Source: Paraspadella gotoi (taxonomy: Eukaryota; Animalia; Chaetognatha). Taken from it: DNA of 64,000 nucleotides. The position numbers and the translations under genes are program-made. The stretch lies in the NCBI GenBank assembly GCA_051294375.1, contig CM119271.1:15692770-15756769 (forward strand). The letters are read 5' to 3'. Shown here piece after piece: positions 88 through 43,632 of the stretch (position 1 is its first letter; every line of letters starts with the position of its first letter). The notes below the pieces were generated by a model. The model was given only the letters and a program-made list of their open reading frames with translations. It was not told the DNA's origin and made no database searches.

Positions 88-1576
88 TCAATCGAAGAGA
101 GAGAATCCCATGTCTTCGTCGGATTCTTCCTCGCTCTCCTCCTTCTTCTCCTCCTTCGCTTCCTCTTTCTCTTCGGGGGCAGCGCCGCCGCCGCCGCCGG
201 CCGACGCGGCGCCGCTCGAGGTGGCGACTCCTGCGCGATGAGGCGTGAGTTATGATTAAGAAAGATCTTTGAATTCACAACAGGTCATTTTTAATTTTTA
301 ATTTATTAATAGATTCATTCATTCATACATCCATTCATCCCTCCCAACCTGCGCCGACGGAGGCCGCGGCCGAGCCGAGGGACCCGAGCAAAGCCCCGAC
401 GTCGACGCCGTCCAAGGCTTTGGCGAAGAGGGTCGGCCAGTAGGGCTCGACGCTCACCCCGGCCGCCTTCAAGAGGGTGTTGATCTTGTCCGCGGTGATG
501 GAGATTCCTGAAGAAAATAGAAGATGAACTGAAGCAGATTAATTTGTGGTTCGTTTCAAATGAGATTGAGTTCTTCAATCTCATTTACATATTGTAGCAG
601 TTTAGATCATTTCTCATATCTTTTGATACGGTTTTCATAGTAGTCTTATTTTACGGTTTTAATAGGTTTTAATAATGATTTAGTTTTCCAATTATTATTC
701 AAATATTTTATTGGAGAATTTACAAATGGATCTAAAAGTCTCGATGATAGTCCGTTATTAATTCCTGCTATTTGTTATGTTATATCATTTTCGGTGCTGT
801 CACTCTACCAATAATACTATACTCTCTGGATGGTACTGATTTGGTAATAAATAAAACATATTACTGAAAAAAAAAGGATTTCAGGGTCGGTCTGAACCAT
901 TATGCTTTTTTCTTAGCTTACCAATTATAATATGTTAATCATTATGCATCTCGTTTAAAACTATTAATGTTAAGTTAACAATACAATAAATAATGAAATT
1001 AACCACTACTGTATTACTTCTCTCGCTCAGTTAAGCTTATCAGATATTAATTCATAGACGTTATTAAGTATAAGAGCAAGAAGAACAATGCGAGTGTTCT
1101 ACTACTAACCATAAGGTCAACAATAATAATAATAATATAATCTATCTAATACTTAAGGGAGTGGTCTTTTCATATAATTGAAACATTCTTTAAAATATTT
1201 TCCACTTCATTGATAGGGAAGCCAGGTACTCTGGGAGTGAATAAACGGGACTGTGAGAGAGTCTTGATTAAAAGCTTGCAGGGACCTTCTTATGTAATTA
1301 TCTTGTAAGAGTGATGGAGGCCTTAAACCACCAAAGCCTGTCCAAAGTCAGGGGCAAGATAGCTTATTTATTAAATAAATGGATAATTTTTATATTGGTT
1401 GTACCAATTTCATAAGATACCCCCCCCCCGTTAGAGTGGTGCATCGTCCGGGAAAGAGTCGCTCTCATTAACAATAACCAATCATGCACAATTGCAATAT
1501 GCAAAATGCTAATCTCACCATCGTCGTGAAGGATGAGGGCGGCGTAGATGCAGGCCAGTTCGTCGTTGGACGCCAT
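88..1576 (-). CDS. RPLP1: 60S acidic ribosomal protein P1 (3 exons: 1576-1519, 507-349, 230-88)
   Basis: Spliced at GT-AG sites gives [51 protein letters not shown]...EESDEDMGFSLFD*, with the P1 N-terminus and the conserved P-protein C-terminal motif. Confidence 0.97.
1150..1413 (+). mobile_element. Dispersed repeat family B (retroposon-like 3' end), copy in RPLP1 intron 1
   Basis: Shares gccaggtactctggga...aaagtcaggggcaagatagcttatttatt...ccaatttcataa with at least five other copies in the window; common 3' end with variable 5' truncation. Confidence 0.75.
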
Positions 1577-5671: not shown

Positions 5672-8958
<3,287 letters not shown>

Positions 8959-9757: not shown

Positions 9758-12700
9758 CTATCTAAACTTCTCCAACTGTCTGACGATCCCTTCCCGAGCA
9801 GCGACGGCCTTCAACGCCGCTTCTTTCTCTTTCTTCGTCGGCGTCCTCTTCTTGGAGTGGCACTCCAGCATCCTTCTATAGCACTCCATCACTTCGTTGT
9901 CGGCGTGACCCAGTTTCTTACGCAACTCCTGCTTGGCCGTCTCGTCCTTGGCCCGTTTTAGGAGAGCGGAGAGAGTGGTGCGGTTCTTCTCCGACAACTG
10001 GCGCGATAATGAAAACAATATTTATAATATATAATAATCTAATAATATAATATGACAACGGAGAGACATGTGTGATGCCCGGGGTGTGAGGAATCTCCCA
10101 ACAACTGGCGCTAGGGTGACCAAGTCCAGGGAGACTGTCTTGAGAGTAGACGGACTCTTTGCCACAGAGAGAGAGCGAGCGAGTGAACGACAAGCAGGAA
10201 ATAGGCGTGGGATTCATACCCTTTAGAGACGACGTGAGCGACGGTACGCAGCAGTTGCGTGTTCGATAGTAGGGTTCACCACTTATGGCATATGTGATGC
10301 CTGGGGTGTGAAGCATCTCCCAACAGCTGGAGCCCAGGGCTTTGGACCTGCAGTGACCACCCTATGTCACTTGCGCGCTTACGCCAACACCATCACATTT
10401 AACCAGCATGACCATCAGGGGATTGAACCCGTAACACATGGTTGGTGAACGAGTACTTGGCTATCCAAGCCAATGGGACGAGTCGAGTTTCATCAAGCTA
10501 TACGGGAGGCGAATTTAGGATTCACCACAATAAAACTAAATTAATAGCATTAATATAGTTTTATTGTGGTGAATCCTAAATTCGCCTTCCTTATAGCTTG
10601 GTGAAACTCAGCATTAATAATATCTACTCAGCATTAATAATACCTAATAATTATTCCTTTTACCTAATACAACTTTATTGATAAGGAAGCCAAGCACTCT
10701 GGGACTTAATAAAGAGAAAGAAAATTGAAAGTAAAAAGTTTGCAGGGTTATTATTGAGTAACAGGATGGAGGAATTCATTCTGCATAGCCTCTCTGAAGT
10801 CAAGGTACAAGATAGCTTTGTTTTGTTAGTTCTACCAATTTTATAAATATTCAACCACTTTCAAATAGTACAGTATAATAAATGCTATATTAAGTACTCG
10901 CCTCGGCCAGTTCCGCCCCAATTCTCTTCATCTCAGCGAGGGTGGCTTCGTCTGAAGATTCAATGGTCAAGTGGCTCGTCGAGGTCTTCTTCTCGGAGAC
11001 GAGTTCATCGTCAGCGTCTCTGCCGTCGTCCTCGACGTCATCGTCTTCCAGAATTCCGAGATCGAAGAGTTCCCGTTGAATCCTTCGCTCGAGCGCCGCC
11101 ATGCTGCCGAGGCCGAGATTCCGCGCCAGGGCGGTCGGCGAGATGCTGGAGTCACCGTTGCACAAGCCCGTCTGGTCGGCACCGCTATTGAGGAGGGCCT
11201 CGGGCAAGGAATCGGCGGCGCCGTCGACGAGGGCGCTGACGAGGCGCTGAGCAAGCGGTCCCAGCCCGGACTCTGAGTTCTCCAAATCGATGTCGGCGCG
11301 GCGTGAGTAAATCAGCGCCGAAGGATTTTTGTTCACGGCGGACTTGGCGGCGCCCACGTCGTCCCTCGGCGTCGTAGGCGTCGCCCACTCGAGCAATTCT
11401 TCGTCCAGCTCGCTCCCTTTGATGAGATCCTCCAAAAACTTCAAATCGCCGGCGCCGATCTCCGCGCAAAACGGTTCCACAAGACTCCAAAACTTGTTGG
11501 GCGTCTCGTTTTGCGGCGCGCCGGGCGGAGCTGTCGTCGCGGACGCCGGCGTGGGCGGCGCGACGGGAATGACGGGCGGAGGAGGGGCAGGGGGCGGGCA
11601 GGGGCTGCCCTTGCTCTTTTTAAAGGGTCGTTCGTCGATGGAGGCGGAGAGTTTTCCACCGGCGCCGCGTTTCCCCGGAGAGGAGGAGGAAGAGGAAGAG
11701 GAGACGGCGACAAGACGCGGGTCGACGTCGCCGGAGGATTTGGAGGAGGAGGAGGATTTGGAGGAGGAGGAGGAGGATTTTGAGGAGGAGGAGGATGAGG
11801 AGACGAAAGGGCGGATGTCGCTGTTTTCGGGCCAAGAATTGATGTTTTGGGCTTCGCCTGTTTACGGGAAGCGAGTGAAAAAAAAAAGTTGCATAAACCG
11901 AGTAATTTCTTTATTCAGATTTACGTAAAAGTGTCGCAATGAAAGTTGATTTACTAATTTACAATTTAATTTTTAATTAAAATTTTTGTTCAGTACTTAA
12001 TCCTAATTGAAACATTGTCCCACTTACGTTAAAAATGCTCTTATTGTATTGTATTGTATTGTATTTATTCATACAGCGGGTCTGAGGACCATGGGCCACA
12101 GTGGTTTTATAAAAACACAAAGCAGATAACAGAGATACAAGCAGTAATACAATAAGTATGACATTAGAAAATTAGATTTCCAGAAACTGAGTAAATTTAA
12201 GCAATGAATAAATTTTTCCTAATAGAAAAAAGGCCAATTCTACATAAAAACAAAAAACTACACAGTTTCATATATTAACGGAACATTACTTAAAAAGGCA
12301 ATCGGACTAATGTGATTTCCCAAATACGGGTATTTATTAATATCTTTGATATACTCCGGAAGGAGCGGAGACGAGTTCATTAAACTAACAAATTGGGAAT
12401 GTGCTCGTCTGAATATTCTAAATCGTAAGTCTCGTAAGCCTAATGAATCTAAAACTATTTTATTAGACATTTTTCTTAACTTGCAAATAGATCGGTTGCT
12501 CATTTGTCAAGACAGAAAAAAACCTCAAATCTAAGGGACTGCTAGCGCCGCCATCAGGAAATAACAGACAAAAGACAAAATTCCGATGCAGTGCTTGTCA
12601 TAAATACAAGGGCGAAGAAAGTTATGGTAGTCATGTAGTCATGTAATGTCACAAGAAACGCATGTGATAAGGCAGTCACTGCGGCGGAACACATTTGAAT

Positions 12701-21457: not shown

Positions 21458-26140
<4,683 letters not shown>

Positions 26141-26676: not shown

Positions 26677-28642
26677 CTAGGCTGGGTTGGGATGGGGGTC
26701 ACCGGTTCCGAGGGCGCAGACGGCGGCGCAAAGGATGCACGTGATGATGACGCAGAAGACGATGTAAATCGTCGTCGTCAACCAAAAGGCGTATTGATAA
26801 AGGGCGACATCGCATTCCTCCGGACTGGGCGAGTAAATTCTGGAAAAAGAGGGAGAGAGGAGTTTTATATGTCTCTTTCTATCCATCTTCTTGTCTTTCT
26901 TTCTATCTTCTTGTCTTTCTTCCTCTTCTCCCTTCCTCTTTTCTTCCTCTTCTCTCGCTTTCCATTTTCCTTCGCCATCGTCGCTTCACCTTCACGTTTG
27001 CTTTTTCCTCAGAAAATTAAATTGCTTTTCTCCGAGCATTTTCGTAGGATCCAAAGTTAATTATTACTTTTTTGTTATATGTATACATTTCTATAAAAAA
27101 ATTATATGTTTCCACCCACAAGACTTAGAACCACTCATCCTCCATTCTTTCCCTTTCAATTTGTACTCAAGTTTGTTCACGATAGTTGAGTCTCCACTTT
27201 GGAACAACCTCGCCCAAACCCTCCTCCTAAAACCTACTCACCCCCCCCCCAAATCCCGCCCAACCTGTAGATCCACACATTGCCGGCGATGAACCAAGCC
27301 AAGAGAAAGCAGTTGACGAGATTGTCGAACTTGGTCTCCCTGGGCGAGGCGGTGGCGGCGTCGTCGTCGTCCTTGTCGTATCTCGCCTTGATTCTCCTCG
27401 CGAGGCTGATGAGATTCTTGAGGACGCCGACGACGCCGAAGACGATGAGGTAGACGGGGATCATGTTCTGGACGGGACACTTGTGGAAGTTCATCGCGCC
27501 CATCACTTGGGAGAAAGAAGATTACAAAGTCAATGATAAAACTATCACAATATGTACGTATAAATCGTACATATAGCCAGTCCAAAGTCAGGGGCAAGAT
27601 AGCTTATTCATTAAATGAGTGGATAATTTTTTATATTGGATATACCAATTTCATAAAACATGATCCAAATAAAAAGTAAGGACCAGGTTGAACTCACCTA
27701 TCATTGAAACGGGTATCGCCAGTACAAGACCCACGAAAAATGTGCACCCGATGGTTCCTGCAAAAGGAAGAGGTAAGTTACTGCAGTTAAGCTTCGTTGA
27801 CGAGGCCATTGTGCTGCAAGAAATTGGAAGAGAAAATCTACTTACCAAGTAAAAGAACCATCATGTTTTTGACAAAAGCCGACACGGTCTCAGATCTCTG
27901 CCTCGCTGCCTGAATTTCCCCGAACAAGGACGCGTACGAAGGCGGCCGTTCTGCAATGGAAATAATACTTAATTTATAAGTATATGCAATAATGAAATAA
28001 AATCACGAATCGACTGAATCGCTTAATGTATGTCTTAGTATGAATTGATAATTTTGTAACTAATTTAGTAGTGTCCAACAACAAACTAATATGACGTCTC
28101 ACCCGTGGGATCGAGTGCCATTTCCGAGGAGACGTCCTCGTCCGGAATGGCGCCGTAAAGATTAAGCGGTGGAGACGGGGTTCCTTCGCCGTGGGACGAA
28201 TCTGGTCGGGAAAAGAGGACAGGAAGGGTTGTCGTTTTTGTTGTTGTTTGTAAGGGTGTTGTTGCTGTTGTTTTTGTTTTTCGTTGGTGTTGTTTTGTTG
28301 TCGTTTCTGTTCTTGTTGTTAATGTTTTATGTTTATTGTTCCTGTTTTATGTTTGTAGCTATTTGACATTTGTTGTAGTTTCAAGTTATATGTTGCTTCA
28401 TGTTACAGGTTGTTTCATAGTAGTTGTTGTTTGTGTTGATGTTATCCTCGTCATTCATCCATCATCTAGTACCAACTTCCATCCCCCTTCCCCTAACCAG
28501 CGTTGACGGCGTCCCAATAAGTAGGCGGGTTTTCAGAATAGACGGGCGGTCGATCGGCGGGGCGATCGATCGGGGGTTGTTGCTGGATCGCATGGGTGAC
28601 GGTGTGGGCCGTCGGGCGGATCGTCTTCTCGGTTCCGGCCAT
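26677..28642 (-). CDS. TMEM272: TMEM272-like multi-pass membrane protein, 6 exons
   Basis: LAIPVSMI|VMGAMNFHKCPVQNMIPVYLIVFG, FLLAWFIAGNVWIYR|IY..ECDVALYQYAFWLTT; upstream exons splice in phase from MAGTEKTIR. Confidence 0.8.
27572..27657 (+). mobile_element. Repeat family B, short 5'-truncated copy
   Basis: atagccagtccaaagtcaggggcaagatagcttatt...ccaatttcataaaa. Confidence 0.75.
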
Positions 28643-30548: not shown

Positions 30549-30575
30549 CCTTCAATCACTAATGTTCACTTTTGA

Positions 30576-30860
30576 TTTTTTTTATGAAATTGGTTCAACT
30601 AATATAAACATTATCCATACATTTAATAAATAAGCTATCTTGCAGTTGACTTTGGCTATGGAGGGTTAAGGCCTCTATCCCTCAATCAAGATAATAACAA
30701 AGCAGGACCCAGCAAGCTTTTAATCAAAACTAACGGTCTAATCAAGTTTATTGATTACCAGTGTACCTGGCTTATCTATCAATGAAGTCGTATAAAATTT
30801 CAAAAATGTTCTAGTTGTTTAAACGGACCACTCCCTTAAGTATTAGATCGGGGAATACTA
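30576..30860 (-). mobile_element. Repeat family B copy ending about 30 bp upstream of the SKA1 ATG
   Basis: Reverse complement ...caagatagcttatttattaaatgtatggataatg...ccaatttcataaaaaaa. Confidence 0.75.
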
Positions 30861-30864
30861 TATT

Positions 30865-31600
30865 NNNNNNNNNNNNNNNNNNNNNNNNNNNNNNNNNNNN
30901 NNNNNNNNNNNNNNNNNNNNNNNNNNNNNNNNNNNNNNNNNNNNNNNNNNNNNNNNNNNNNNNNNNNNNNNNNNNNNNNNNNNNNNNNNNNNNNNNNNNN
31001 NNNNNNNNNNNNNNNNNNNNNNNNNNNNNNNNNNNNNNNNNNNNNNNNNNNNNNNNNNNNNNNNNNNNNNNNNNNNNNNNNNNNNNNNNNNNNNNNNNNN
31101 NNNNNNNNNNNNNNNNNNNNNNNNNNNNNNNNNNNNNNNNNNNNNNNNNNNNNNNNNNNNNNNNNNNNNNNNNNNNNNNNNNNNNNNNNNNNNNNNNNNN
31201 NNNNNNNNNNNNNNNNNNNNNNNNNNNNNNNNNNNNNNNNNNNNNNNNNNNNNNNNNNNNNNNNNNNNNNNNNNNNNNNNNNNNNNNNNNNNNNNNNNNN
31301 NNNNNNNNNNNNNNNNNNNNNNNNNNNNNNNNNNNNNNNNNNNNNNNNNNNNNNNNNNNNNNNNNNNNNNNNNNNNNNNNNNNNNNNNNNNNNNNNNNNN
31401 NNNNNNNNNNNNNNNNNNNNNNNNNNNNNNNNNNNNNNNNNNNNNNNNNNNNNNNNNNNNNNNNNNNNNNNNNNNNNNNNNNNNNNNNNNNNNNNNNNNN
31501 NNNNNNNNNNNNNNNNNNNNNNNNNNNNNNNNNNNNNNNNNNNNNNNNNNNNNNNNNNNNNNNNNNNNNNNNNNNNNNNNNNNNNNNNNNNNNNNNNNNN
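30865..31600. other. Assembly gap (736 N)
   Basis: Run of n characters. Confidence 1.
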
Positions 31601-31671
31601 AGAGAGGGAGGGATGAGAGAGAGGGAGAAGAAGAGAGAGAAAACAAAAGACTCGCTGCAATTCATTACTTT

Positions 31672-31820
31672 AATAAATAAGCTATCTTGGACAGGCTATG
31701 GTGGGTGAGGGCTTCCATCTCTCTTACAAGATAATAACACGCTCTCACAGTCTAGTTTATTCACTCCCAGAGTATCTAGCTTCTCTATCAATGAAAGAGT
31801 ATAATATTTCAAAGAATGTT
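31672..31820 (-). mobile_element. Repeat family B copy
   Basis: aataaataagctatcttg...tttattcactcccagagta...aaagaatgttt. Confidence 0.7.
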
Positions 31821-32132
31821 TTTATTGTAATAGAATAAGAAGTTTTTGATGATTTCGAGTTGGTCTTCCGAGTCACCAATGGAACCCATTGGGTGAAGAA
31901 GTTGAGATTAAAGAGGAGGAGAAAAAGGAGGAGGAGGAGGAAGCGGAGGAGGAAGCGAAGGACTGACGCCGATTCTTTCCATATTAAACGTCGACTTCGC
32001 CCGTCGCTATATTGGAGACGAATTTGTACGGACGCCGATATATTCGATGGATTGCAAAGACTCGATTTATTTTGCTGCCTCTTTAATTATCATTTATTAA
32101 TCCGTTTTCCTTTCTGTTAAATCGATCCCGAT

Positions 32133-32292
32133 TCATCTCCGCTCCAGCTGACGTGAGCCACTTTCGACCTTCGATCACGATGCATCTCCGCTCCAACTGA
32201 CGTGAGCCATCTTCGATCCTGATGTATCTCCGCTCCAGCTGAAGTGAGCCACCTTCGACCTTTTATCCCGATGCATCTTCGCTCAAGCTGAT
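32133..32292. repeat. Degenerate 40-50 bp tandem repeat, 3-4 copies
   Basis: atctccgctcca(g/a)ctga(c/a)gtgagcca recurs at about 32135, 32184 and 32225. Confidence 0.85.
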
Positions 32293-33243
32293 AACATCAG
32301 CTTGCGAATAACATAATTCCGCCTCCAACAGCTACTTCTACTAGGAAGCCTTGTACAAAAACAAATCCATGCCGTCTTGTCCCTAGCATCCATGCGAATC
32401 CGCTCAGCCTTGAGCGCTGCTGACTTGTTGGAGCCCTTGAGATCCAAGATTGATGAGGTTTTGTGGGGCGCGGGCCACAGGCAGCATTTTTAGAAATGCG
32501 ATAAGGTCACTATTTTCCCCCCGTTTTTAGGCATCCCCTATTTAATAATAAAAAGGTTTAACCAAACCGGGTGATAATAAAAAAACGGTCGCAAAAAATA
32601 TAACTACAATTTGTTATTATACATGATTTTTTATATATTAGAGCCTTACTTTTTTAAATAAAATGCTGAGAAATCAATTTTTCAATATGAATAGTTGCGT
32701 TAATAAAAAATGTTCAAAAAAGAAAAAAAAACTATTTAGAAGAATAAAAAACAGCATAAATACTGTCAATTCGTTTTCAATGGGATTTATATCCATTTTT
32801 GCTTGAACATAATGAAACACTTTTTCTCGAAATAAAGCAGTAAATTCAACAGGATCACCCGTCAATAAAAAATAATACAATTTTAAAACACAACAAGATA
32901 GTATAAAATCTAAAAATTTAAAAAGTACAAAAAATTATTGAGATGAAAATTCCCATCACCCTCCCCTCCCCTACATCTCGAACAGATTGATAAGGCCTTC
33001 ATATCAAATACAATCGACTTTTGAAAAACCAATTTGATTAAATTTAAAACAATGAGTATTGCCTTTGACTAGAAATTTCTGCATTTATGTCGATACAGAT
33101 TACATTTCAACAATGTAACGTTAAAAATGCTAACCCCTAATAATATTAAAGAAGAATATGGAAAAATATAAAAATTTCATTCGAGGTAATAAGTACCTGG
33201 AATAAAGTTTTTTTTTGGTTTTTGGTTTTTTTCTGTCAGATCA

Positions 33244-34035
33244 TCACAAATAATGGAGCTTGTCCTCCAATTTTAAATGGGTACGTCGTCCCTTCATTTT
33301 TTCCCCGACCAAGTAGGCCAGCTTGTGGGCGTACTGAGTTGGGGCAGGCACCTTTATGGTGCCCTGCCAGTTATAATACATGTGCGTCAACTTGTGCGCC
33401 AGGATTTGATGGCGATAAACGGAGATGTCGGCATTGTTCCAAATGATATTATAATGCGTGGGCGTGACGGTGCCCCTATTCACCGACTGGGAAACGACGA
33501 AGAAATCCTGATACTCTGGCTTCGTTACGGTATCGTTGATCACCGTCCCAGCGGAGACGTTTTTAAATTGGCCATTCTCCTTGAGAAAAAACCTGAAAAA
33601 AGGAAGAGAGAGAGATTTTCATTTCATCTCAAATGAGATTAAGATAATTAATAAATGGATGAATGGATGAAGAGAAAAAATTCATGAAAAAAATTCATTA
33701 ACAAAAATATAGGCCTATAAAATATATTCCTACCTCTGTGGAATTCGCTTCGTGACTACAGTGTAAGCCAATCTCAGCTTTTCAAAGGTCAGGTCTTTCC
33801 ACGCACGTTCCAAAGGCGCAACCTCTTGGTCTTTAATGATCTGCGAGGTGTTTAAAGATATTTTTAGTTAAATACTTATTTTCACTATGGAGAGACAGTG
33901 CATAAGAAACAAAATTTTTTTATAAATTTTTTGCCATATATTTCGACTTAATTTCTAAGTCATCATCAGTGGCTGAAAGAGACAAAACAAGAAAAGGTAA
34001 TAAATATCAAAAAATAAAAGAAAGGTTTACCATTA

Positions 34036-34071
<36 letters not shown>

Positions 34072-37000
34072 TGTGTGTGTAAGTCAAAAGTCAAATTGAC
34101 CAAATGACCAAAAACCCAAAAACCCTTTCTTGGGTTTTTGGTCATCTGGTCAATTTGACTTTTGACTTACACACACACTCTCTCTCTTTCTCTTTCTCTC
34201 TCTCTCTTAATGGTTAACCTTTCTTTTATTTTTTGATATTTATTACCTTTTCTTGTTTTGTCTCTTTCAGCCACTGATGATGACTTTGAAATTAAGTCGA
34301 AATATATGGCAAAAATTTATAAAAAAATTTTGTTTCTTATGCACTGTCTCTCCATAGTGAAAATAAGTATTTAACTAAGCATTCTACTAGTGCATGTGAT
34401 GACATTAAAGCAATGTTTAAAAATATATTTTCACCAAATTTTATATTATATATTTTAATTGTTTTATTAAGTTTAACAAGGTTTTATACCAAATATTTTT
34501 TATTATCTTATAAATAAATACGTACCCTAAGCTGTCCTTCGCCAACTCCGTCTCGGTAAACCAAAGTCCTGTTTGGAAGGGCGCCGTTGATTTCCTTATA
34601 ACGCTTCCAAGCTTCCGTCATCAGCGACTCGGCGCTCGGGAGGAGCTCGTCGCTTAGAAAGTTTTGTTCACGCGTCGTTGACCAGTATCTGTGTGAAAAA
34701 TATGAGGGTTAAAGGATTCTGGCCGACCGGGATAATCGGATATTCTAATGCGTAAGGTCTTTGAACTGGCTAATGGGTATGGTTGGTTGAAGCATCCATC
34801 GAACTTTCATTTCCATTCGCACGATTAACTTAATTTCCAGATCAATAACACACTTACCCACCACCCTCCACTTTATATTCCCCAAAAAGTTCATCCGGCC
34901 TCATTAGCACAGTCACAGTTTCTAAAACGCCTTCGACTGTTTGTCATGATGGAAGGCAAGCAATAATTTTCTCCAAACTTATTCACCCATTTAAAAGTTG
35001 CCTTTTAAGTTTTCACCAAGGAAAAGACGTTTTGTTTCCCCTCACCTGCCCCAGTTATTGTCCATTGTGGCGACGAAACCGAGGACGGACTTTTCCTTCC
35101 GCTTTGGGTCGTGATAGACGTCGATTCCGACGACCATTGTCCCCTTCAAAGGGACCTTGATCGTCCATGGGATCCCGCCGAGTTTCGCCTGCATCTGGAT
35201 GACGATCTTCCTCGCGATGGAGGGGAGGTTCCGGTCGGCCTTTGATGAAGACAATTTCGTCAAGAAGATAGTCTAAAGACTTAATGTTTACCGATGCATA
35301 ATATTTAGTTATTATTTGATTATTTGATTTATATAATTGTATTCTAACACCTGGCGAGACAAAAAAGAGAATAATTGGAAACGGGGATGAGTTTCGTTGA
35401 GTTCAAAGACCCAAAGACCACCCAATGGGTGATAATCAAGAGTTTTTTAGTTGGTACGGGTCATTGGGAAAACTATCATGACCAACAAACAGGAGAAATA
35501 ATTAAATAAACAAATCCTTTTCTCGTAATTGAGAAAGGAAAAAGAAATGGGACCTGTCTAATCTTCGGCGTGATCACGATCATCTGCGAGGGAATCCCGA
35601 ATTCGCAGGAAAGAACGTTTTTGCAGGCGGTGTAAGCTTCGTGATTTTTGCTCGGCAAGAAAACCACCACCATGCTTATGGACTCGTTTCTGGATTCAAA
35701 AAAATATCAATTTACGAAATTTTATCAACGTCAGAAATTGTTTAATTGGCGATTCTTTTAAATACCTACCTGGGGTCTCGACACAGAGCTCTGACAGCCT
35801 GAACATAATCGTTCCCTTTCACCGACGGCAATCTCGTCTCCATAACTGCTTCGGGCAAACTGAGGGGGTGAGGAGGTGAAATCGGAGTAAACAAAAAGCC
35901 ACAAAATGCTACGACACATCGTTCGATAAGACAGACTACACAATGAAATTAAAAGGAAATCCTAAAATAAGTAAAATTTAATTATTTTATTTTAAAAAAA
36001 ATTTAAAAAAAATTATTTTCATTAAAAAAAATTATATATTTTTTAAACAACCATACTGAAAAATTAATTTACTCGAGTTTCATGTCTCTAGCGAATCTCG
36101 TCATGAGGGCGACGAAATTGTGCAAGGGTTGCTGATCCCTGGCGGGAAGGACGAGCGCCCACCGGCCGAACAACCGAGGATCGAACAGAGATTTTGAATT
36201 CATATCCCTGGACCAGTCGGCGACGTCGCGAGGATAGGAAGGATTGGGGCTAATGGAAAGATCGATCGGTTTTTCCGCGCAACTACGGTTGAAATGAAAA
36301 GACAATCAATTAATTAGCTAATGCTTAATTAATTAGCATTGTACCTGGCCAAGGATAAAACAAGAAAGGGCGTTATCAACATGTTGCGCTGGATTTACAT
36401 ACATCATTAATTATTTATGTTAATTATTTTTAAGTGATCCCATAACTGCTGAAGTTTTTTTAAAACCCGAGTACAAAAGGGGTATTTTGCAACATGACCA
36501 GACTATCAAATATCTGTCAAATACAATGTAAATGGGAGAGACAGACTAAAAGAACTTGTCAACAACTACTACTTCACCCGATATAGATTGTCTCCGCTTT
36601 AAGTTGCCGAGGGTTTTCGACTCTAACCAACTCTTTGTCAACGCGAACGCCCCAAGGTTCCAGTTCTGCTTTCGCTTTGGGATTTTCCAACCCATGAACG
36701 ATTTGGCGATACTTGGCGACGCGATCGTTGACCTCCGGTCGCGTCGTGCTCTGTCGATTCGTATTATCAATTTAAATGAAGACGAATTATAATTATAATT
36801 ATAATCATAAACGCCCGTTTTATAAACAGCCCTAACGTTGCGTTGCGAGACCGACCTGTGTAACCTCACCAGTGGCTGGCCCCAAGATTGGCGGGGCCGG
36901 TGATGAGTTAGGAAAATTCAAAGGGCCTTTGTGTCTCAATTAATTGGGTATAAGTGTATAAGTGTATAAGTATATATGTATAAAACATGCATGAGAAGCG

Positions 37001-40000
37001 TCTCTTGGTACATGACTATTGACTAATCTGTTCCATCTGCCAAGTCCCATGAGTTAATGTCTCCGATTTATAATTTTATACTTATTATATAAATGAGACG
37101 GCCAGATTAACAGGGATAGCAACGCTGAATGAACAGTAAAGACAATAAAAGGACAACTTGCCATCAGCGCGTTCTGCAGTGAATAATCCTCTCGCATCTG
37201 CTGAGATTGTCCAGTGAGAAAGGAGAGCTCGGGCATGAGGTCCAATTGCGGTTTCCGTCCGCGTCGCTCGGCTTCCCTCTTCTCCGATCCTTTAAGCCGA
37301 TGTACGATGAGGGGCTGTTGCGGGTGTACGTTTATATTGTAACGTTGTCTGCCGAATAAAGCGGTTAGAGGGCGTTAGATGTTTTGGTCAATTTGTGGAA
37401 GACGATGCACACAGGCTCCCGAACTTCGGATCGGGCTGTTTTCCTCACTACAGGTGGGTTAGACGCCCCGTCGCGCTTTTAATTGTGCGAATCAGCATAA
37501 ACGAACCCGAGTCCTTTGGGTTGGGAGGAGCTCTTACTACCCTGATTCTCGAACGAGTAGCAGGGTAGGAATTACTACCAGCTACAACTTCCCAAAAAAC
37601 TATTGTTTAACGATATAATACTGACTTGTAATATTCGATGTAGGTGATTGGTTCGCCGTCTTTATCAAACTTGTTTCCCGGATTCTTGTCAAAGTCGAAA
37701 TCGTCGATTTTGTATGTTTTATTGTTGTAACGACACAAAACTGACATCCCGACAAGCTCCAGCCTGATTCTCCGGTAAGCTTCGTCTCTTCCCATTCTTT
37801 GAACCAATTCTCTGATATAATCTAAAACCGTCTCTTGGCGCAGAACCTGAAAGAGATCGAAACGTAAGAGATAATCAAAGTTCCACGTGGGCAAAGTTAT
37901 GTTAAGACATACGAGCCACCGCGCCCCTCGGTTCCACCTTCGACTCGTAGTCCAGCACGCACAACAATCCTCCCGTGTAGTTGTCGATCCTGGTCGAGCA
38001 GCCGGGCGCCACGTGGAGACGATACTGGCGGAAGTTGACTTCGGATCGTAGATCGAGCAAATAAAAGTTGCGGCCGATTTGGGTCTGACCCAACCGAGAC
38101 TGGGCCTGGCGCAGCAACACGTTGAGCATCTGCTTAGTCGTGGGCGAGTTGATGGGAAGCATGGCTCTGCGGCGCACGAGCATGGAGACCCTCTGACCCT
38201 CGAAATTCCCGACGATGGTCGTCTCTTCTTGCGGCGTCTGGTGACGAGACCATCCGTTCATCCCGTCGAAGGAAATAGGAAAGGGAAACTGAGGAGCGAC
38301 GAAATCGCGGACGAGTTGTCGTCGCTGACGAGTCGAGTCCTGGCGTCGAGAAAAACATTTAAGAAAGAGATGTTTAACTCAAGAAAACTATGGAGTTGAT
38401 TGTGAAGATATGACCCCCTTTCCCCCTTATTTATTTTGTTTGCCTTTTTGTTTTACCATTTCTGCCGAAAGTTGGCTTTTCTTTTCTTTATGAGATTTCA
38501 CTCCTCTTTCTTTTCTTACCAGATATTCTAGGCCACATAGATAATTTAGGCGCCCGTCACTAAACTGCCTTTTACGAGGCTTAGGAACCCTTCACGTCGC
38601 CATCTCGTCACCTTTGTTACAGTTTCTCAACACAGTTGTGACAAGCCGATAGAACGCCTAGAGAGACCCACACTTCGATAGCACTTGCACGGTTCTTTTA
38701 CATCGATTTACTCAGGCATGGAGTTGCACAGATGAGATGTCCGGGATACGTTTCCGGACCTTTGGGCTACACAAAAAAAGGGAATCAAATTTTTCCTTAA
38801 ATGACAGTTTTTTTAAAATTATATTAAAATTAGCTATATAAAATCAATAAAGTAGAATTAAAAAATTTAAAAATGGGTTTAAATTTGTTTTAAAAATAAA
38901 AAATATCATGCATCATCCATAATTCTATAAAATTTAACTTTCTTTGAGTCCATAACCATTATTCTATCTTTAAAAAATTAGTTTATTTGTAATTAATTTT
39001 TTATTATTTTTAATTATATTTTTTAATTTCCAAATAATTAAATTAAAAATTATGAACTAGCCAAATGATAGAAGAATTTTATATATATACAGGAGACTTA
39101 CCTACTAATAAGGCCTCAAATACATATAGTAGTAACAGTTTATTTATGATGATTTGAACATAGAATAAATAATCTTAAATAAAATTAAATATATGAAAAA
39201 AATTTTAACTTTGAATTTTTTTTTAGCAATAAACATAATTATTAATTAATTGTCAACGATGCTTAATAGCTACTGGTCAGTTTGTATTATTCTCAATTAT
39301 AATATTTATAACTTTTTTTATTTTTAGTAATACTGACTGCTATATTTACTTACTGTTTGACAAAATCACCAAAAATTACTGGTATTACAAATTAATGTAT
39401 GAAACAGACGAAACTTTTTTAAAATCACATGCTATTTAATTGTTTGAAGCTGATATAATATTATCCTTGACGAACAATTTAAAAGTTTTAAACAATCCCA
39501 ACTAAGAATTTTTAGCGCCAAAAGTGTAGGTTGTTTAAAAAAACTGCAAGATGCCAAAAGTGAATAAAAAAAAAGTTATTTTCTTGAATATTCTTTGAAA
39601 AAAAAAGAGGTAGCAGGTTGGGTGATGGTATCAATTAAAAGCCTAAATCATAGGAATATTTCTAGAAACAGTTTATGTTAAATTTTATCATAATCTCTTA
39701 CACAGTTTTTATTAAAAGAGTTAAAGTATAACAGTTTTTGCATTACACAATTTCAATGAAGGCAATATAAAATTTTTGTGTTTCTTATTGAAATTAAAGA
39801 GGAAATCTGGAATTACATTTTAATTCCATTAAAATTTTATCTCTAATACTTAATAAATTTTGGCTTGTATTTATGTTAGTTAAAAGTAAAAACAAGCAAA
39901 AATTTGGTAGTAGGCTTGATAACAAATGTTTCTTTTAAATAAAAAATGATAAATAATAAAATGTTTTCCAGCTTGATAATACAGTCTGGACGTCTACCTT

Positions 40001-43000
40001 TCTTGTCTGCTGAAAAAAATAATCATTTTCATATCTTTAACTGCAAAGAAAAAGCCTTGATTAATACTGCCTTGTTGATCATCAATAAAATTTTTTAAAA
40101 ATTACTTAACTGCTGACATATTTGACAAAGCAGACAATCATTGTGTTGAATTGTATTGATATATTTCTTTTAAATATAACAACCTTTAAAGGGAATTTAA
40201 ATTCTATTATTTATCAATTCCATTTTAATTAAGAAAAAAAAATTCGCGGAAAAGGGTTTCATTGAACGACTTAATGATTTGCATGTGTGTTAAGTTTCTT
40301 TACAGCCCCATTACGCAACAGACATAAAAGTCATATTATATGTCACTAATGTACAGATTTCTCTGACCCTTTATGCCACCCTGAATTCTGAATTTTCTTT
40401 TTTCGCCTTTTCTAAATGTAATTAAATTAAAAAAATTATAGGAGAGACGATCAGCATGGGAATACCTGTACAGCTTAGTTACCCCACTATGCCCGAACAA
40501 TTTTTAACAAGTTGTTTTTTTTCATCATTCTAGGCTAAATCTAATCTATTGGTACTATTTTATTTTTAAATTTTTACATCTCTTTCGCGGTATCAAAAAA
40601 AACGTTTTGCGTGTCAACAAAAGATTATAAGAAAAAAAAGTAAAACGTTTTCAAAATATAAAAAATCTATAGAGGAATGCTACTATAAACTTAACAAATA
40701 TACTGATGTTATATGTGTTAGAACTTGATGCCACACTCCAAATAAAAAACCTGTTAAATATACTGCGTTTCTGATCATTTAAAAGAGGCTACTGAATAAG
40801 TTAACTACAAAGCAGGTCGAATACATAATATTTATAACATTTGACAACCTAATACATGTTTAGTGGGATTGTTTTAAAAACTTTTTTAAATTTTGTCCAA
40901 AGATAATATTTATATCAGTTTTAAAACAAAAATAGCATGTGATTTAAAAAATTTCGTCTGTTTCATTACATAATTTTTCTAATACCAGTAATTTTTGGAT
41001 TTTGTCAAAAGTAAGCTAAAGTATACATCAGATCAGTATTCTAAAATAAAAAGTTATAAATATTATTATAATTGAGAATGAATACAACTGACCAGTAGGC
41101 TATTAAAAGCATCAATGAACAATTAATTGAATAGTATGTTTATTATGCTAAAGAAAATTCACAAGTTTAAAATTTTTTCATATATTTAATTTTATATTAT
41201 TTATTACTAGTCAAACATCCATTATAATTAAACTGTACTATTATAGTGTATTTGAGAGCCTATATTAGGTAGGTAAGTCCCATTATAATAGTAAAAATTT
41301 TTCTGTCTAATTCATTTGGCATAGTTATAATTTTTTTAATTTAAATTATTTGAAAAAAATTAAAATACTATTTAATAAGAAAATGAATACAAATAAACTA
41401 TTAAAGATAGAATAATGGTTATGACTCAAACGAGAGAAAATTGTTATAGATTATGGATGATGCATGATATTTCATTTTTAAAAAATTTAAACCATTTTTA
41501 AATTTTTTTATTCACTTTATTGATTTTATATAGTAATTTTAATATTAATCTATAATAAAAAACCTGTCATTCAGGAATAAATTGATTACTCTTTTTTGTG
41601 GCCAAAGTCTCCGGAAAACTATCCCGGGACATCTCATTCTTGTGCACTTCCATCGCCGATAAATCGATGTAAAAAGAGGAACCGTGCTGGTGGATGCGGT
41701 TTGTGGTCAGACTATAGTCTCCGTCATAGACTTGTGGACGGACTCGAGTGACGACACCCTCGTCGACCACACTCGATGACGACATCCTCGGCGACCAGCG
41801 GTCCACGGCGCCAATTCGCGGCGTTCTTGGGCCTACGAGGGACGTGGAGGACAACTCTCCTCCGTCGCGGCACGACGGCGGCGAAGCAGAGGCGACTTCA
41901 CGTGCACGCCACCAAGACTGTACTTACATATGATACATTGATATTAAAAAAAGTTTTTATTTAATGAGACTTCTATGCATCATAAGCTAATTATTTATTT
42001 TCAAAAGATTAGAAAGTTTTTTTTTAATATAATCAGTGGCTGAGAAAAATATTTTTATAGATTTAAATAAGCCTTAATTGCCTGTTATGAAACTTTTTTA
42101 TAGTTAAATTACTAAGCAGGCCTTGACATCGATAAAACTACCAAGCACTTCTTTGAGAGACTGTTTGCCTTCAGCGCGAGAATGGCGACTTGCATCTCAA
42201 AAGTCACGTGATCGACCTGCCACCTCATATAGACAAAATCGCTTGAGTGATTGACATTTTTTTGCCATTTTAATTACTTTTTTTCTATATTTTTTGGGGG
42301 TTAACTTCTTATCAGTTTTTGAAACCTTTCTTGGACTTTTTAGTTTTCCACCTGATTGGGAGAAAATTCGACGACGTAAGAGTAAAGGGTGAAGTCGCCG
42401 GCGGAAGAGGTGACTCGGTAGGCGTTGGTGTAAACTTCCGAGAGAGACTTGCTCGAGTCACGTGCTTCACTGTCTGTCACAGTTTTACGTTCATCAACCT
42501 GGAAACAAAAACAAATTAATGCATAAACGATTAAAATATTTTAATAACTTACGCGATTTTCGAGTTTATTAACTATATTAACTGTAATTGCATTGATAAG
42601 TAACAGGCACTTTCGCTTTTTTTTTTTAAATTATGATTTTAACAAATATTGCCAAGTCGCTCCTCAGTCCTCACCATTTTTATAGTGGCGAAAGAGGCGC
42701 ACTCTTTAAGTTGGTCGATCGATTTTCCTATGGACATCGGCCTCTGAGCATCCTTTCCCGCGAATAACGAGAGTCGCTCCAGGGCTTCCGCGAGTTTGCC
42801 CGTCGGCTTTCGATCGCCCTGGGAATGCGCAGCGCCACGATGCGCGCCACGTGACGCGGCTTCTGTGCCAGATGGAACGGCTTCGTCACCGCGAGGAGCA
42901 GCTTCAGCGCCGCGAGGAGCACCTGCGGCACTGCTTGGAGGTTCGCCACGGTGTCCGTTGCCATTCTCTTCTCTTCGTACGTTGCTATTTGGGGTCACCG

Positions 43001-43632
43001 CCGGAGAGGGACGCTGCGACGAATCAAATCCAGGTGGAGCCCCTCCTCCTTGGGGGCGGCCGTTCCCATTTGGGTTACCATTGGGGTTTCCGCCCCAAGG
43101 GAAACGAGGGGCCTCCGTTTCTGGCCTATAAATTATCATTATTATTATTATTATTATTATAGTATAATAACGTTGTCAAAATGATTAAAGCTTACCATAA
43201 ATATATCTAAGCCTATACTAGTTATTAATACAAGCGGTTAATAACTATGATCATATGTCGCTTTTAACTTACCTGAGCAGGTCTAACGCCATTTGACCCA
43301 TATCCCGGCGGCGGACGAGTCGTTTGTCCGAGAGTAGGAAATCCTTGGGATCCCTGGGAGCCAAATCCAGGCGGTCTCTGTCCCGGGGATCCGGGCGGAC
43401 CGAATCCGGGCGGTCTTTGACCCTGGGATCCCTGCGGCGCGGGTCCGGGCGGCGCAGATCCCGGCGTAGCAAATCCAGGGGGGGCAGATCCAGGCGGTCG
43501 AGCCCAACCCTGGCCCGGCGGGCGCGGTTCCTGGCCCGAAGCGCCGCCGACTTGTTGGGGCACGGGATTAGTGGGATCTTGTCTAGCGCGGCCTCGCGCT
43601 CTTCCTCGGCCTCTGGGCGGGTTATCCGACAT
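33244..43632 (-). CDS. PIWI: Piwi-clade Argonaute, about 14 exons; one apparent 1-nt phase conflict at exon 2
   Basis: N-terminal RGRGRARGRAR; PAZ RYNNKTYKIDD..ITYIEYYK; MID YTACK..IPSQ; PIWI VVGIDVYHD, SDELL, VYRDGVGEGQ, DFFVVSQSVNRGTVTPTHY, HKLTHMYYNWQGTIKVPAPTQYAHKLA..LHYL*. Catalytic D-E-D-H residues appear intact. Confidence 0.95.
33933..33973 (-). ncRNA. Minimal type I hammerhead-ribozyme motif, sense to the Piwi pre-mRNA
   Basis: gcca CTGATGA t gactta gaaat taagtc GAAA ta TA tggc: both core boxes, stem II, 4-bp stem I, palindromic ATAT in place of stem III. Confidence 0.6.
34270..34310 (+). ncRNA. Minimal type I hammerhead-ribozyme motif, mirror copy
   Basis: gcca CTGATGA t gactt tgaaatt aagtc GAAA ta TA tggc. 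Confidence 0.6.
37400..37545 (-). mobile_element. SINE-like family C, copy 2 (Piwi intron)
   Basis: Reverse complement cctcccaacccaaaggactcgggttcg...gacggggcgtctaacccacctgt...cagcccgatccgaagttcggg matches 15030-15190. Confidence 0.6.
38685..41690. repeat. Long imperfect inverted repeat (arms about 38685-39540 and 40840-41690) in the 4-kb Piwi intron
   Basis: For example atatcatgcatcatccataat (about 38902) versus attatggatgatgcatgatat (about 41450); many small indels between the arms. Confidence 0.85.

What the first reader, a model, noticed from the sequence alone, without database searches (positions are those of the whole stretch)
33864..34378. Hammerhead-bearing 515-bp palindrome inside the Piwi gene
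Seen: a near-perfect fold-back fills three quarters of the 685-nt intron (34525-33841) and ends about 23 nt from the 3' splice site. Each arm contains CTGATGA-stem II-GAAA-TA-TA closed by gcca/tggc; the 33973-33933 copy is in the transcribed orientation. Known: such minimal hammerheads with a palindrome replacing stem III typify Penelope-like elements, act as dimers, and PLE ends are often inverted. Inference: a PLE-derived fold-back could make the Piwi pre-mRNA a source of about 250 bp dsRNA and small RNAs, or allow cleavage when paired with element transcripts, giving a potential transposon-sensing feedback on Piwi. It may also be a neutral insertion.
Basis: partly seen in the sequence, partly recalled or inferred. 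Interest (0 to 1): 0.7.

Follow-up and report, generated by a model that had tools for sequence, protein, structure and literature searches.

The report
Fold-back Penelope stub in Piwi intron
This is a real 550-base back-to-back double copy of the end of a repeated, likely Penelope-type jumping gene, lying in an intron of an animal Piwi gene; the layout is already described for that class, an RNA-type assembly shows the intron removed correctly, and the small ribozyme motif is predicted to be locked shut by its mirror copy, so it is likely a tolerated passenger rather than a transposon sensor.

Summary
Confirmed: a 515-nt fold-back (247 of 259 columns match) with a minimal hammerhead in each arm, in a Piwi intron. 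Inverted ends, tail, duplication and minimal hammerhead are the published signature of endonuclease-bearing Penelope-like insertions; no RT or GIY-YIG gene could be tied to it. It belongs to a multi-copy family. Its junctions recur in 3 of 4 samples of another study, so an amplification artefact is unlikely, though the centre could not be checked. An RNA-type contig skips exactly the 685-nt intron. The mirror arm is transcribed first, and folding the hammerhead costs over 50 kcal/mol, so cleavage of Piwi pre-mRNA is unlikely; modelled invasion by diverged element RNA freed it in 0 of 9 trials. The hairpin also buries the element's own splice acceptor, which would truncate Piwi. RNA-only A-to-G changes hint that family transcripts are edited; not shown for this copy. 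The scan found this kind of insertion in other genomes before. Ordinary; low interest.

The parts
33849..33863 (.). Target-site duplication, left copy (15 nt)
   Evidence: 13/15 identical to 34414-34428 in exact register; 108 of about 200000 random AT-rich junction pairs score as well
33864..34122 (-). Left arm: tail-less pseudo-LTR copy, sense on the Piwi (minus) strand; 3' arm of the pre-mRNA hairpin
   Evidence: other family copies also start at 33864 (contigs 3, 18, 19, 26; contig 10)
33933..33973 (-). Minimal type I hammerhead motif in transcribed orientation (helix I 4 bp, CUGAUGA, bulged U, stem II 7 bp, GAAA, AUAU palindrome, UA cleavage site)
   Evidence: cleavage untested, predicted sequestered
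33973..33995 (-). Element-borne acceptor-like signal (pyrimidine tract, TTTCAG; the G is the first base of helix I); use would add PLMMT then a stop
   Evidence: 18 of 20 pyrimidines against 11 of 20 at the real acceptor; mean unpaired probability 0.001; no such joint listed in the RNA-type run
34123..34126 (.). 4-nt loop at the head-to-head junction
   Evidence: window assembly only, centre not covered by the read tool
34127..34378 (+). Right arm: pseudo-LTR copy, antisense to Piwi; 5' arm of the pre-mRNA hairpin, transcribed first
34270..34310 (+). Minimal hammerhead motif, mirror copy; ATG at 34280 spans A9, the bulged U and G10.1
34379..34413 (+). One-sided 35-nt tail
   Evidence: loose ends at 34413 with differing flanks: X1 6 contigs, X5 2, X2 5, X7 3
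34414..34428 (.). Target-site duplication, right copy
33841..34525 (-). Host Piwi intron, 685 nt (120 nt without the insertion)
   Evidence: joint 33840 to 34526 in a 3804-nt contig of run X9, depth 44.6
33241..43631 (-). PIWI-clade Argonaute gene (start codon inferred from an RG-rich N-terminus; last four exons fixed by the RNA-type contig)

Best explanation
The 550-nt insertion is a head-to-head double copy of the end of a multi-copy element, likely left by a Penelope-like retrotransposon, and it is likely a tolerated passenger whose hammerhead is predicted to be shut off by its mirror arm. Steps: (1, inferred from published mechanism) a Penelope-type RT/GIY-YIG enzyme nicked AT-rich intron DNA and copied a short element RNA from two start sites 35 nt apart, leaving two 5'-truncated ends back to back, one with the tail, inside a 15-nt duplication. 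(2, shown) The arms, tail, duplication and multi-copy family are in the sequence and the contigs. (3, predicted) When Piwi is transcribed, the antisense arm comes first and zips up the sense arm as it emerges, giving about 250 bp of double-stranded RNA that buries both the hammerhead and the element's own splice acceptor while leaving the real splice sites outside. (4, shown in one RNA-type run whose genotype at this site is unknown) The intron is removed at the normal sites. (5, inferred) The excised hairpin may be edited by ADAR or diced into some small RNAs against the family, as for other inverted Penelope copies, with no special effect on Piwi.
For: Arms and motif. Tail end shared by other copies in 4 of 6 DNA runs at 34413, and copies starting at 33864. 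Duplication 13/15, empirical p about 5e-4. Summed contig depth over the element 75-120 times the flank in X1 and X2, 9-23 times in X5, X6, X7 (the tool warns that this is no copy number, but 200 and 155 contigs were laid in X1 and X2, many with foreign flanks). ATG at the start of stem II, 27 nt before the cut site, as in the anole element (26 bp, PMC11167929); acceptor ending at helix I as in D. virilis Penelope (PMC4209133). Hammerhead fold costs 54 kcal/mol in the full intron and 51 in the nascent RNA; P(G10.1-C11.1) 3e-15. Normal splice joint at depth 44.6, no cryptic joint listed. Fold-backs are common here: 4 in 64 kb, 2 in Piwi, P about 0.13.
Against: No RT or GIY-YIG coding sequence was linked to the family (no genome held; 0 hits in two metagenome scans). 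The duplication differs at 2 of 15 sites while the arms differ at 5 of 252 (P about 0.035), which could mean arm homogenisation or selection to keep the hairpin. No empty site was seen in 6 DNA runs (5 of them with a junction contig), so the insertion may be common or fixed, which drift or selection could both give. Whether the RNA-type sample X9 carries the insertion is not shown, so correct splicing with the insertion present is not proven. Neutrality was not tested.
Confidence: 0.78

Rival explanations
1. Co-opted small-RNA source: the hairpin in the Piwi intron is kept because it yields siRNAs against its own element family wherever Piwi is expressed.
For: Perfect duplex blocks of 63, 28, 71, 19, 41 and 16 bp; arms more alike than the duplication; inverted Penelope copies give siRNAs in Drosophila (PMC3681739, passages); junctions in several samples.
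Against: Other family copies also show fold-back joints (33914 to 34362, 33914 to 34371, 34269/34357 opposite strands), so this copy is not a unique source; no small-RNA data; no related species to show conservation.
Confidence: 0.12
2. Element-responsive switch: element RNA binds the single-stranded antisense tail, displaces the 3' arm and frees the hammerhead and the cryptic acceptor, lowering Piwi.
For: The antisense tail is about half unpaired; an identical tailed RNA binds with -55.5 kcal/mol and restores stem II, a tail-less one does not (-6.1); the cryptic acceptor gives a stop after 5 codons, removing 151 residues.
Against: With 5, 10 or 15% random divergence the hammerhead and acceptor stayed paired in 9 of 9 models, and even the identical invader left 19 of 23 acceptor bases paired; family contigs mostly differ from this copy; the geometry arises in any tailed fold-back; minimal hammerheads cut weakly (PMC4209133) or only with element protein (PMC11167929); it would lower Piwi, favouring the element.
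Confidence: 0.04
3. Amplification or assembly artefact: the fold-back, or its centre, is a chimera.
For: Whole-genome amplification is known to make palindromes (PMC6218980, PMC13265396; search listing only); no contig spans the insertion and the centre was skipped by the tool; library method not on record.
Against: Arms differ at 5 substitutions and 2 indels; unique flanks continue colinearly on both sides with a target duplication; left junction present in X1, X2, X5, X7 and right junction in X2, X6, from two studies (30 and 28 nt inside the element, just under the tool's 31-nt bridging rule); the RNA skip of 685 nt is counted on the window and does not test the length.
Confidence: 0.03
4. 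DNA fold-back element or MITE that happens to carry a hammerhead.
For: Long inverted arms and no coding sequence.
Against: The duplication lies outside a one-sided tail, not next to both arms; family copies end at two sites 35 nt apart; inner arm sequence differs among copies beyond 34248.
Confidence: 0.03

Closest known systems
Insertion units of endonuclease-bearing Penelope-like elements: inverted 5'-truncated pseudo-LTR, one-sided 30-40-bp tail, target duplication (Pen2a_Av, PMC3846280 passages; scheme in PMC8557442 passages)
   Same: Head-to-head inverted ends, 35-nt tail on one side only, duplication outside the tail, palindromic junction, AT-rich target
   Different: No ORF between the ends; duplication 15 nt with 2 mismatches (8-10 bp in the rotifer examples read); arms contain a microsatellite; clade not determined
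Minimal type I hammerheads of metazoan PLE pseudo-LTRs (Cervera and de la Pena 2014, PMC4209133, parts 1-2 of 4 read)
   Same: Helix I 4 bp, helix II 7 bp, extra base between positions 9 and 10.1, G10.1-C11.1, palindrome at 15.2-16.2; acceptor ending at helix I as in D. virilis; paired motifs on opposite strands 100-700 bp apart are reported there for Schistosoma
   Different: No cleavage assay here; sits in a host pre-mRNA behind its own antisense copy
Poseidon element of Anolis (Frangieh et al. 2024, PMC11167929, parts 1-2 of 4 read)
   Same: ATG at the start of stem II, cut site 27 nt (26 there) downstream, tail defined by two ends
   Different: Frame is broken here (stop after 24 codons in the right arm, after 2 in the left); ends lie 99 and 134 nt from the ATG, first start site 111-118 there
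Transposon-bearing intron 4 of Drosophila piwi (Malone et al. 2014, PMC4197963 passages)
   Same: A piwi intron with element fragments and a weak pyrimidine tract
   Different: There the fragments (Cr1A, DINE) were not needed for the splicing defect and no hairpin or ribozyme is involved; no sign here of retention
Metazoan non-LTR retrozymes (bioRxiv 10.64898/2026.07.22.740005, part 1 and passages)
   Same: Non-coding, type I hammerhead, PLE-derived
   Different: Defined by head-to-tail tandems; this one is head-to-head, so no unit-length RNA can be cut out

Membership tests
EN+ Penelope-like element insertion | Inverted 5'-truncated terminal copy adjoining the element (head-to-head) | tested here: met
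   both hammerheads read outward from the centre
EN+ Penelope-like element insertion | One-sided 30-40-bp tail that is a shared family end | tested here: met
   35 nt; loose ends at 34413 in X1, X2, X5, X7
EN+ Penelope-like element insertion | Target-site duplication in AT-rich DNA | tested here: met
   15 nt, 13/15, p about 5e-4
EN+ Penelope-like element insertion | Dispersed multi-copy family | tested here: met
   many contigs with foreign flanks, summed depth far above flanks
EN+ Penelope-like element insertion | Telomerase-like RT plus GIY-YIG ORF in this copy or in an autonomous partner | tested here: inconclusive
   absent from this copy; no genome held; 0 hits in metagenome scans
Minimal type I hammerhead | CUGANGA and GAAA cores, UH site, helix I, helix II with G10.1-C11.1, palindrome for helix III | tested here: met
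Minimal type I hammerhead | Match to a curated Rfam hammerhead model | tested here: not met
   searches list no hammerhead family; that the models expect a full helix III is my recall
Minimal type I hammerhead | Self-cleavage as a dimer | not testable with these tools
   the AUAU duplex alone is +1.6 kcal/mol and the two-copy minimum-energy fold pairs through stem II instead
Non-LTR retrozyme | Head-to-tail tandem of two or more hammerhead units | tested here: not met
   only 2 motifs in the window, on opposite strands
MITE / DNA fold-back element | Duplication abutting both terminal inverted repeats | tested here: not met
   35-nt tail separates the right arm from the duplication
PIWI-clade Argonaute (host) | PAZ and Piwi domains, closest named relatives piwi/aubergine | tested here: met
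   motifs GIDV, RDGVG, AHKLA intact

The most novel reading that the evidence does not exclude
The insertion has become a structural splice guard or switch in Piwi: the hairpin hides a strong element-borne acceptor that would truncate the protein, and the antisense tail is a toehold through which fresh, near-identical element RNA (or ADAR unwinding) opens it, so that Piwi output tracks the activity of the element family.
Probability: 0.04. Interest if true: 0.75.

Novelty: new member of a known kind. Interest (0 to 1): 0.2.

Why it matters
As it stands it is one more fold-back Penelope-type stub, useful only as a clean example with tail, duplication, acceptor and start codon all readable, and as a case of an insertion that likely survives in a key gene because it masks its own splice signal. 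It would matter if germline RNA showed that the hairpin changes Piwi splicing in step with element activity: that would be a direct link from a retroelement RNA to the amount of its silencer. No paper in the held library has all of hammerhead, intron, piwi and Penelope (0 papers), but that one search does not show the idea is absent from print.

Tried and rejected
Whole-genome copy search: no genome held. Rfam: only below-threshold miRNA-hairpin matches to the palindrome centre, no hammerhead; 0 gathering-level hits in the window. Autonomous partner: 0 hits in two metagenome pattern scans; no other copy of tail or hammerhead in the window. No listed holder is on record as RNA; X9 is RNA by guess and by its spliced contig. 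Expression of the family: element-to-intron depth in X9 is 88, like the DNA ratio, so it may be DNA carry-over; not used as evidence. Empty allele: no joint seen in 6 DNA runs; X8 does not cover the site and contigs show presence only. Tables of both read calls were cut (98 and 66 loose ends, 301 and 210 pieces not shown). Enrichment of fold-backs in Piwi: 2 of 4, P about 0.13, rejected. Relation of the other fold-backs and repeats of the window to this element: no convincing alignment in 14 comparisons, two marginally above 30 shuffles, no hammerhead core. Errors corrected: the cryptic acceptor was off by one base (redone); the Fisher table used 51 for 50 (redone). The frame next to the upstream fold-back gave no Pfam match. 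No supplementary files were read; the alignments in the supplements of PMC4209133 and PMC8557442 could place the motif in a clade.

Full report
1. Observation. The fold-back is there. The arms 33864-34122 and 34127-34378 align over 259 columns with 247 matches, 5 substitutions and two indels of 1 and 6 nt. The minus-strand intron folds at -415 kcal/mol against -128 +/- 6 for 20 shuffles. Each arm carries gcca, CUGAUGA, a bulged U, a stem II opened by G-C, GAAA, UA, UA, uggc. A descriptor for this form gave 2 hits in the window, one per arm, and 0 in 150 resampled windows. Rfam lists no hammerhead here. The host gene has PAZ and Piwi domains and its named relatives are piwi or aubergine-like proteins of animals; the catalytic motifs in the last four exons are intact.

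2. The true edges. Thirty-five bases right of the palindrome begins a copy of the 15 bases that lie directly left of it (33849-33863 and 34414-34428, 13/15 identical; 108 of about 200000 random AT-rich junction pairs score as well). The register was fixed independently: contigs of other copies leave the window sequence after 34413 with differing flanks (X1 6 contigs, X5 2; X2 5, X7 3), and others begin at 33864. So the insertion is 33864-34413: two inverted ends, one with a 35-nt tail, inside a target duplication. Without it the intron would be 120 nt.

3. A family, and real. In X1 and X2, 200 and 155 contigs were laid, and summed depth over the element was 75-120 times the flank; in X5, X6 and X7 it was 9-23 times. 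The tool warns that this is no copy number, but the foreign flanks show many loci. Copies share about 34248-34413 and many differ inward of it; some contigs share only the hammerhead (34271-34309) between unrelated flanks (X6, X8), so other families carry the same motif; some show short fold-back joints of their own. The left junction is present with no differences in X1, X2, X5 and X7, the right junction in X2 and X6. X1 and X2 are one sample and may be the window's source; X5, X6 and X7 are three samples of another study, each showing one junction; X8 does not cover the site. The contigs reach 30 and 28 nt into the element, just under the tool's bridging rule. No empty-site joint was listed in the 6 DNA runs. 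The centre 34026-34214 was skipped as repeat, so the loop rests on the window assembly alone. With diverged arms and colinear flanks, an amplification chimera is unlikely.

4. What it is. Published Penelope-like insertions have an inverted 5'-truncated copy next to the element, a 30-40-bp tail at one end and a target duplication (PMC8557442 and PMC3846280, passages). Their minimal hammerheads have a 4-5-bp helix I, a 7-8-bp helix II, an extra base before G10.1 and a palindrome at 15.2-16.2, and pairs on opposite strands 100-700 bp apart were already reported (PMC4209133, parts 1-2 of 4). Two finer points match too. In D. virilis Penelope an intron ends at the 5' end of helix I; here a pyrimidine tract and TTTCAG end on the first base of helix I. 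In the anole element the ORF starts at stem II, 26 bp before the cut (PMC11167929, parts 1-2 of 4); here an ATG sits at the same place, 27 nt before the cut, in a broken frame. The RT and GIY-YIG gene, the defining feature of the class, could not be tied to this family: no genome is held and two metagenome scans found nothing. I therefore call it a likely non-autonomous Penelope-like insertion, clade unknown.

5. What it does to Piwi. Run X9, RNA by guess, has a 3804-nt contig that skips 33841-34525 exactly, and two neighbouring introns, at depth 44.6 against 2.6 for an intron contig; no cryptic joint is listed. Whether that sample carries the insertion is not shown, and contigs drop rare forms. 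In the pre-mRNA the antisense arm is made first. Forcing the hammerhead fold costs 54 kcal/mol in the full intron and 51 in RNA ending just after the motif. The same hairpin buries the element's acceptor (mean unpaired probability 0.001), which has 18 of 20 pyrimidines against 11 of 20 at the real site and would add five codons and a stop, removing 151 residues. The real splice sites lie outside the hairpin, with 170 nt of intron left over. So the fold-back likely neutralises its own two hazards. This masking is a prediction.

6. The sensing idea tested. The antisense tail is about half unpaired and could act as a toehold. In co-folding, an identical tailed element RNA bound at -55.5 kcal/mol and restored stem II but freed only 4 of 23 acceptor bases; a tail-less one did nothing; with 5, 10 or 15% random divergence the motif and acceptor stayed shut in 9 of 9 cases. 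These are equilibrium models only. Minimal hammerheads showed no activity as monomers and low activity as dimers, or needed the element protein. An opening would lower Piwi, which helps the element, not the host. Drosophila piwi also has element fragments in a weakly spliced intron, and they were not needed for its splicing behaviour (PMC4197963, passages). Fold-backs are not rare here: 4 in 64 kb, 2 in the 16% that is Piwi, P about 0.13.

7. A hint of double-stranded RNA from the family. In X9, A-to-G changes at 33897, 33908 and 33909 (the last in 5 contigs, 31.5 of 63.6 depth) appear in none of the DNA runs where listed (33908 and 33909 in 0 of 6; 33897 in 0 of 3, not listed). T-to-G at 33916 and 33917 is also X9-only and would be A-to-G on the common family variant that has A there. 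Against this, A-to-G at 33905 is in four DNA runs and at 33904 in one. A-to-G plus T-to-C make 7 of 20 changed places in X9 and 4 of 50 in DNA runs (Fisher p 0.009; 6 of 18 against 6 of 62, p 0.02; the same run, places not independent). X9 is another individual and its contigs look like other copies, so alleles are not excluded and nothing is shown for the Piwi copy. Editing of Penelope and of palindromic repeats is known (PMC5625713, passages), as are siRNAs from inverted Penelope copies (PMC3681739, passages).

8. Earlier notes and verdict. I had formed this reading before looking. The scan holds 37 findings in at least 18 genomes with all my search words, and the 8 shown describe fold-back Penelope-type ends; none matched this sequence, and notes on this genome concern twister elements. 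These are unchecked notes, not support. One literature search for hammerhead, intron, piwi and Penelope together found 0 papers. PMC6218980 and PMC13265396 were seen as search listings only; the retrozyme preprint as part 1 and passages. Verdict: a real, well-preserved insertion of a known kind; passenger 0.78, co-opted small-RNA source 0.12, switch 0.04, artefact 0.03, DNA element 0.03. Interest 0.2.

Noticed in passing
window 38687-39505 and 40860-41687: A second, older inverted repeat (about 820-nt arms, 80% alike, 1.35-kb spacer) lies in a large upstream intron of the same Piwi gene; no hammerhead core, no Pfam match for the adjoining frame.
   Followed up: partly
window 10485-10609: 125-nt palindrome (91%) next to a repeat at 10189-10445, followed by a short AT-rich direct repeat; unrelated to the Piwi element.
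   Followed up: partly
window 7197-7607: AT-rich 411-nt element with about 20-nt near-perfect inverted termini, MITE-like.
   Followed up: partly
window 1144-1415, 25488-25733, 27574-27658, 30574-30848, 31660-31829: Dispersed repeat family with five copies in the window, 69-91% alike.
   Followed up: no
window 8605-8730, 10189-10445, 23333-23681, 23803-24064, 24656-24760: Second dispersed repeat family, G+C-richer, with a near-tandem pair 95% alike; earlier notes report twister-bearing repeats in this genome, not tested on these.
   Followed up: no
window 33867-33871, minus strand: A branch-point-like TTAAC (consensus recalled) 26-30 nt before the real acceptor lies in the outermost base pairs of the hairpin, so the element end may supply or hide the branch point.
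   Followed up: partly
window 34778-34925 and 35242-35313: Short multi-copy segments in two other Piwi introns, seen as raised contig depth and foreign flanks.
   Followed up: no
window 33241-33300: The Piwi frame ends about 25 residues after AHKLA in ...EDKLHYL followed by two stops; N-terminus at 43631 has RG/RA repeats typical (recalled) of arginine-methylated Piwi proteins.
   Followed up: no
window about 30860-31596: Assembly gap of 736 N, 1.6 kb beyond the Piwi stop codon.
   Followed up: no
window 32122-32291: Two 79-nt direct copies, 86% alike, 91 nt apart, downstream of Piwi.
   Followed up: no
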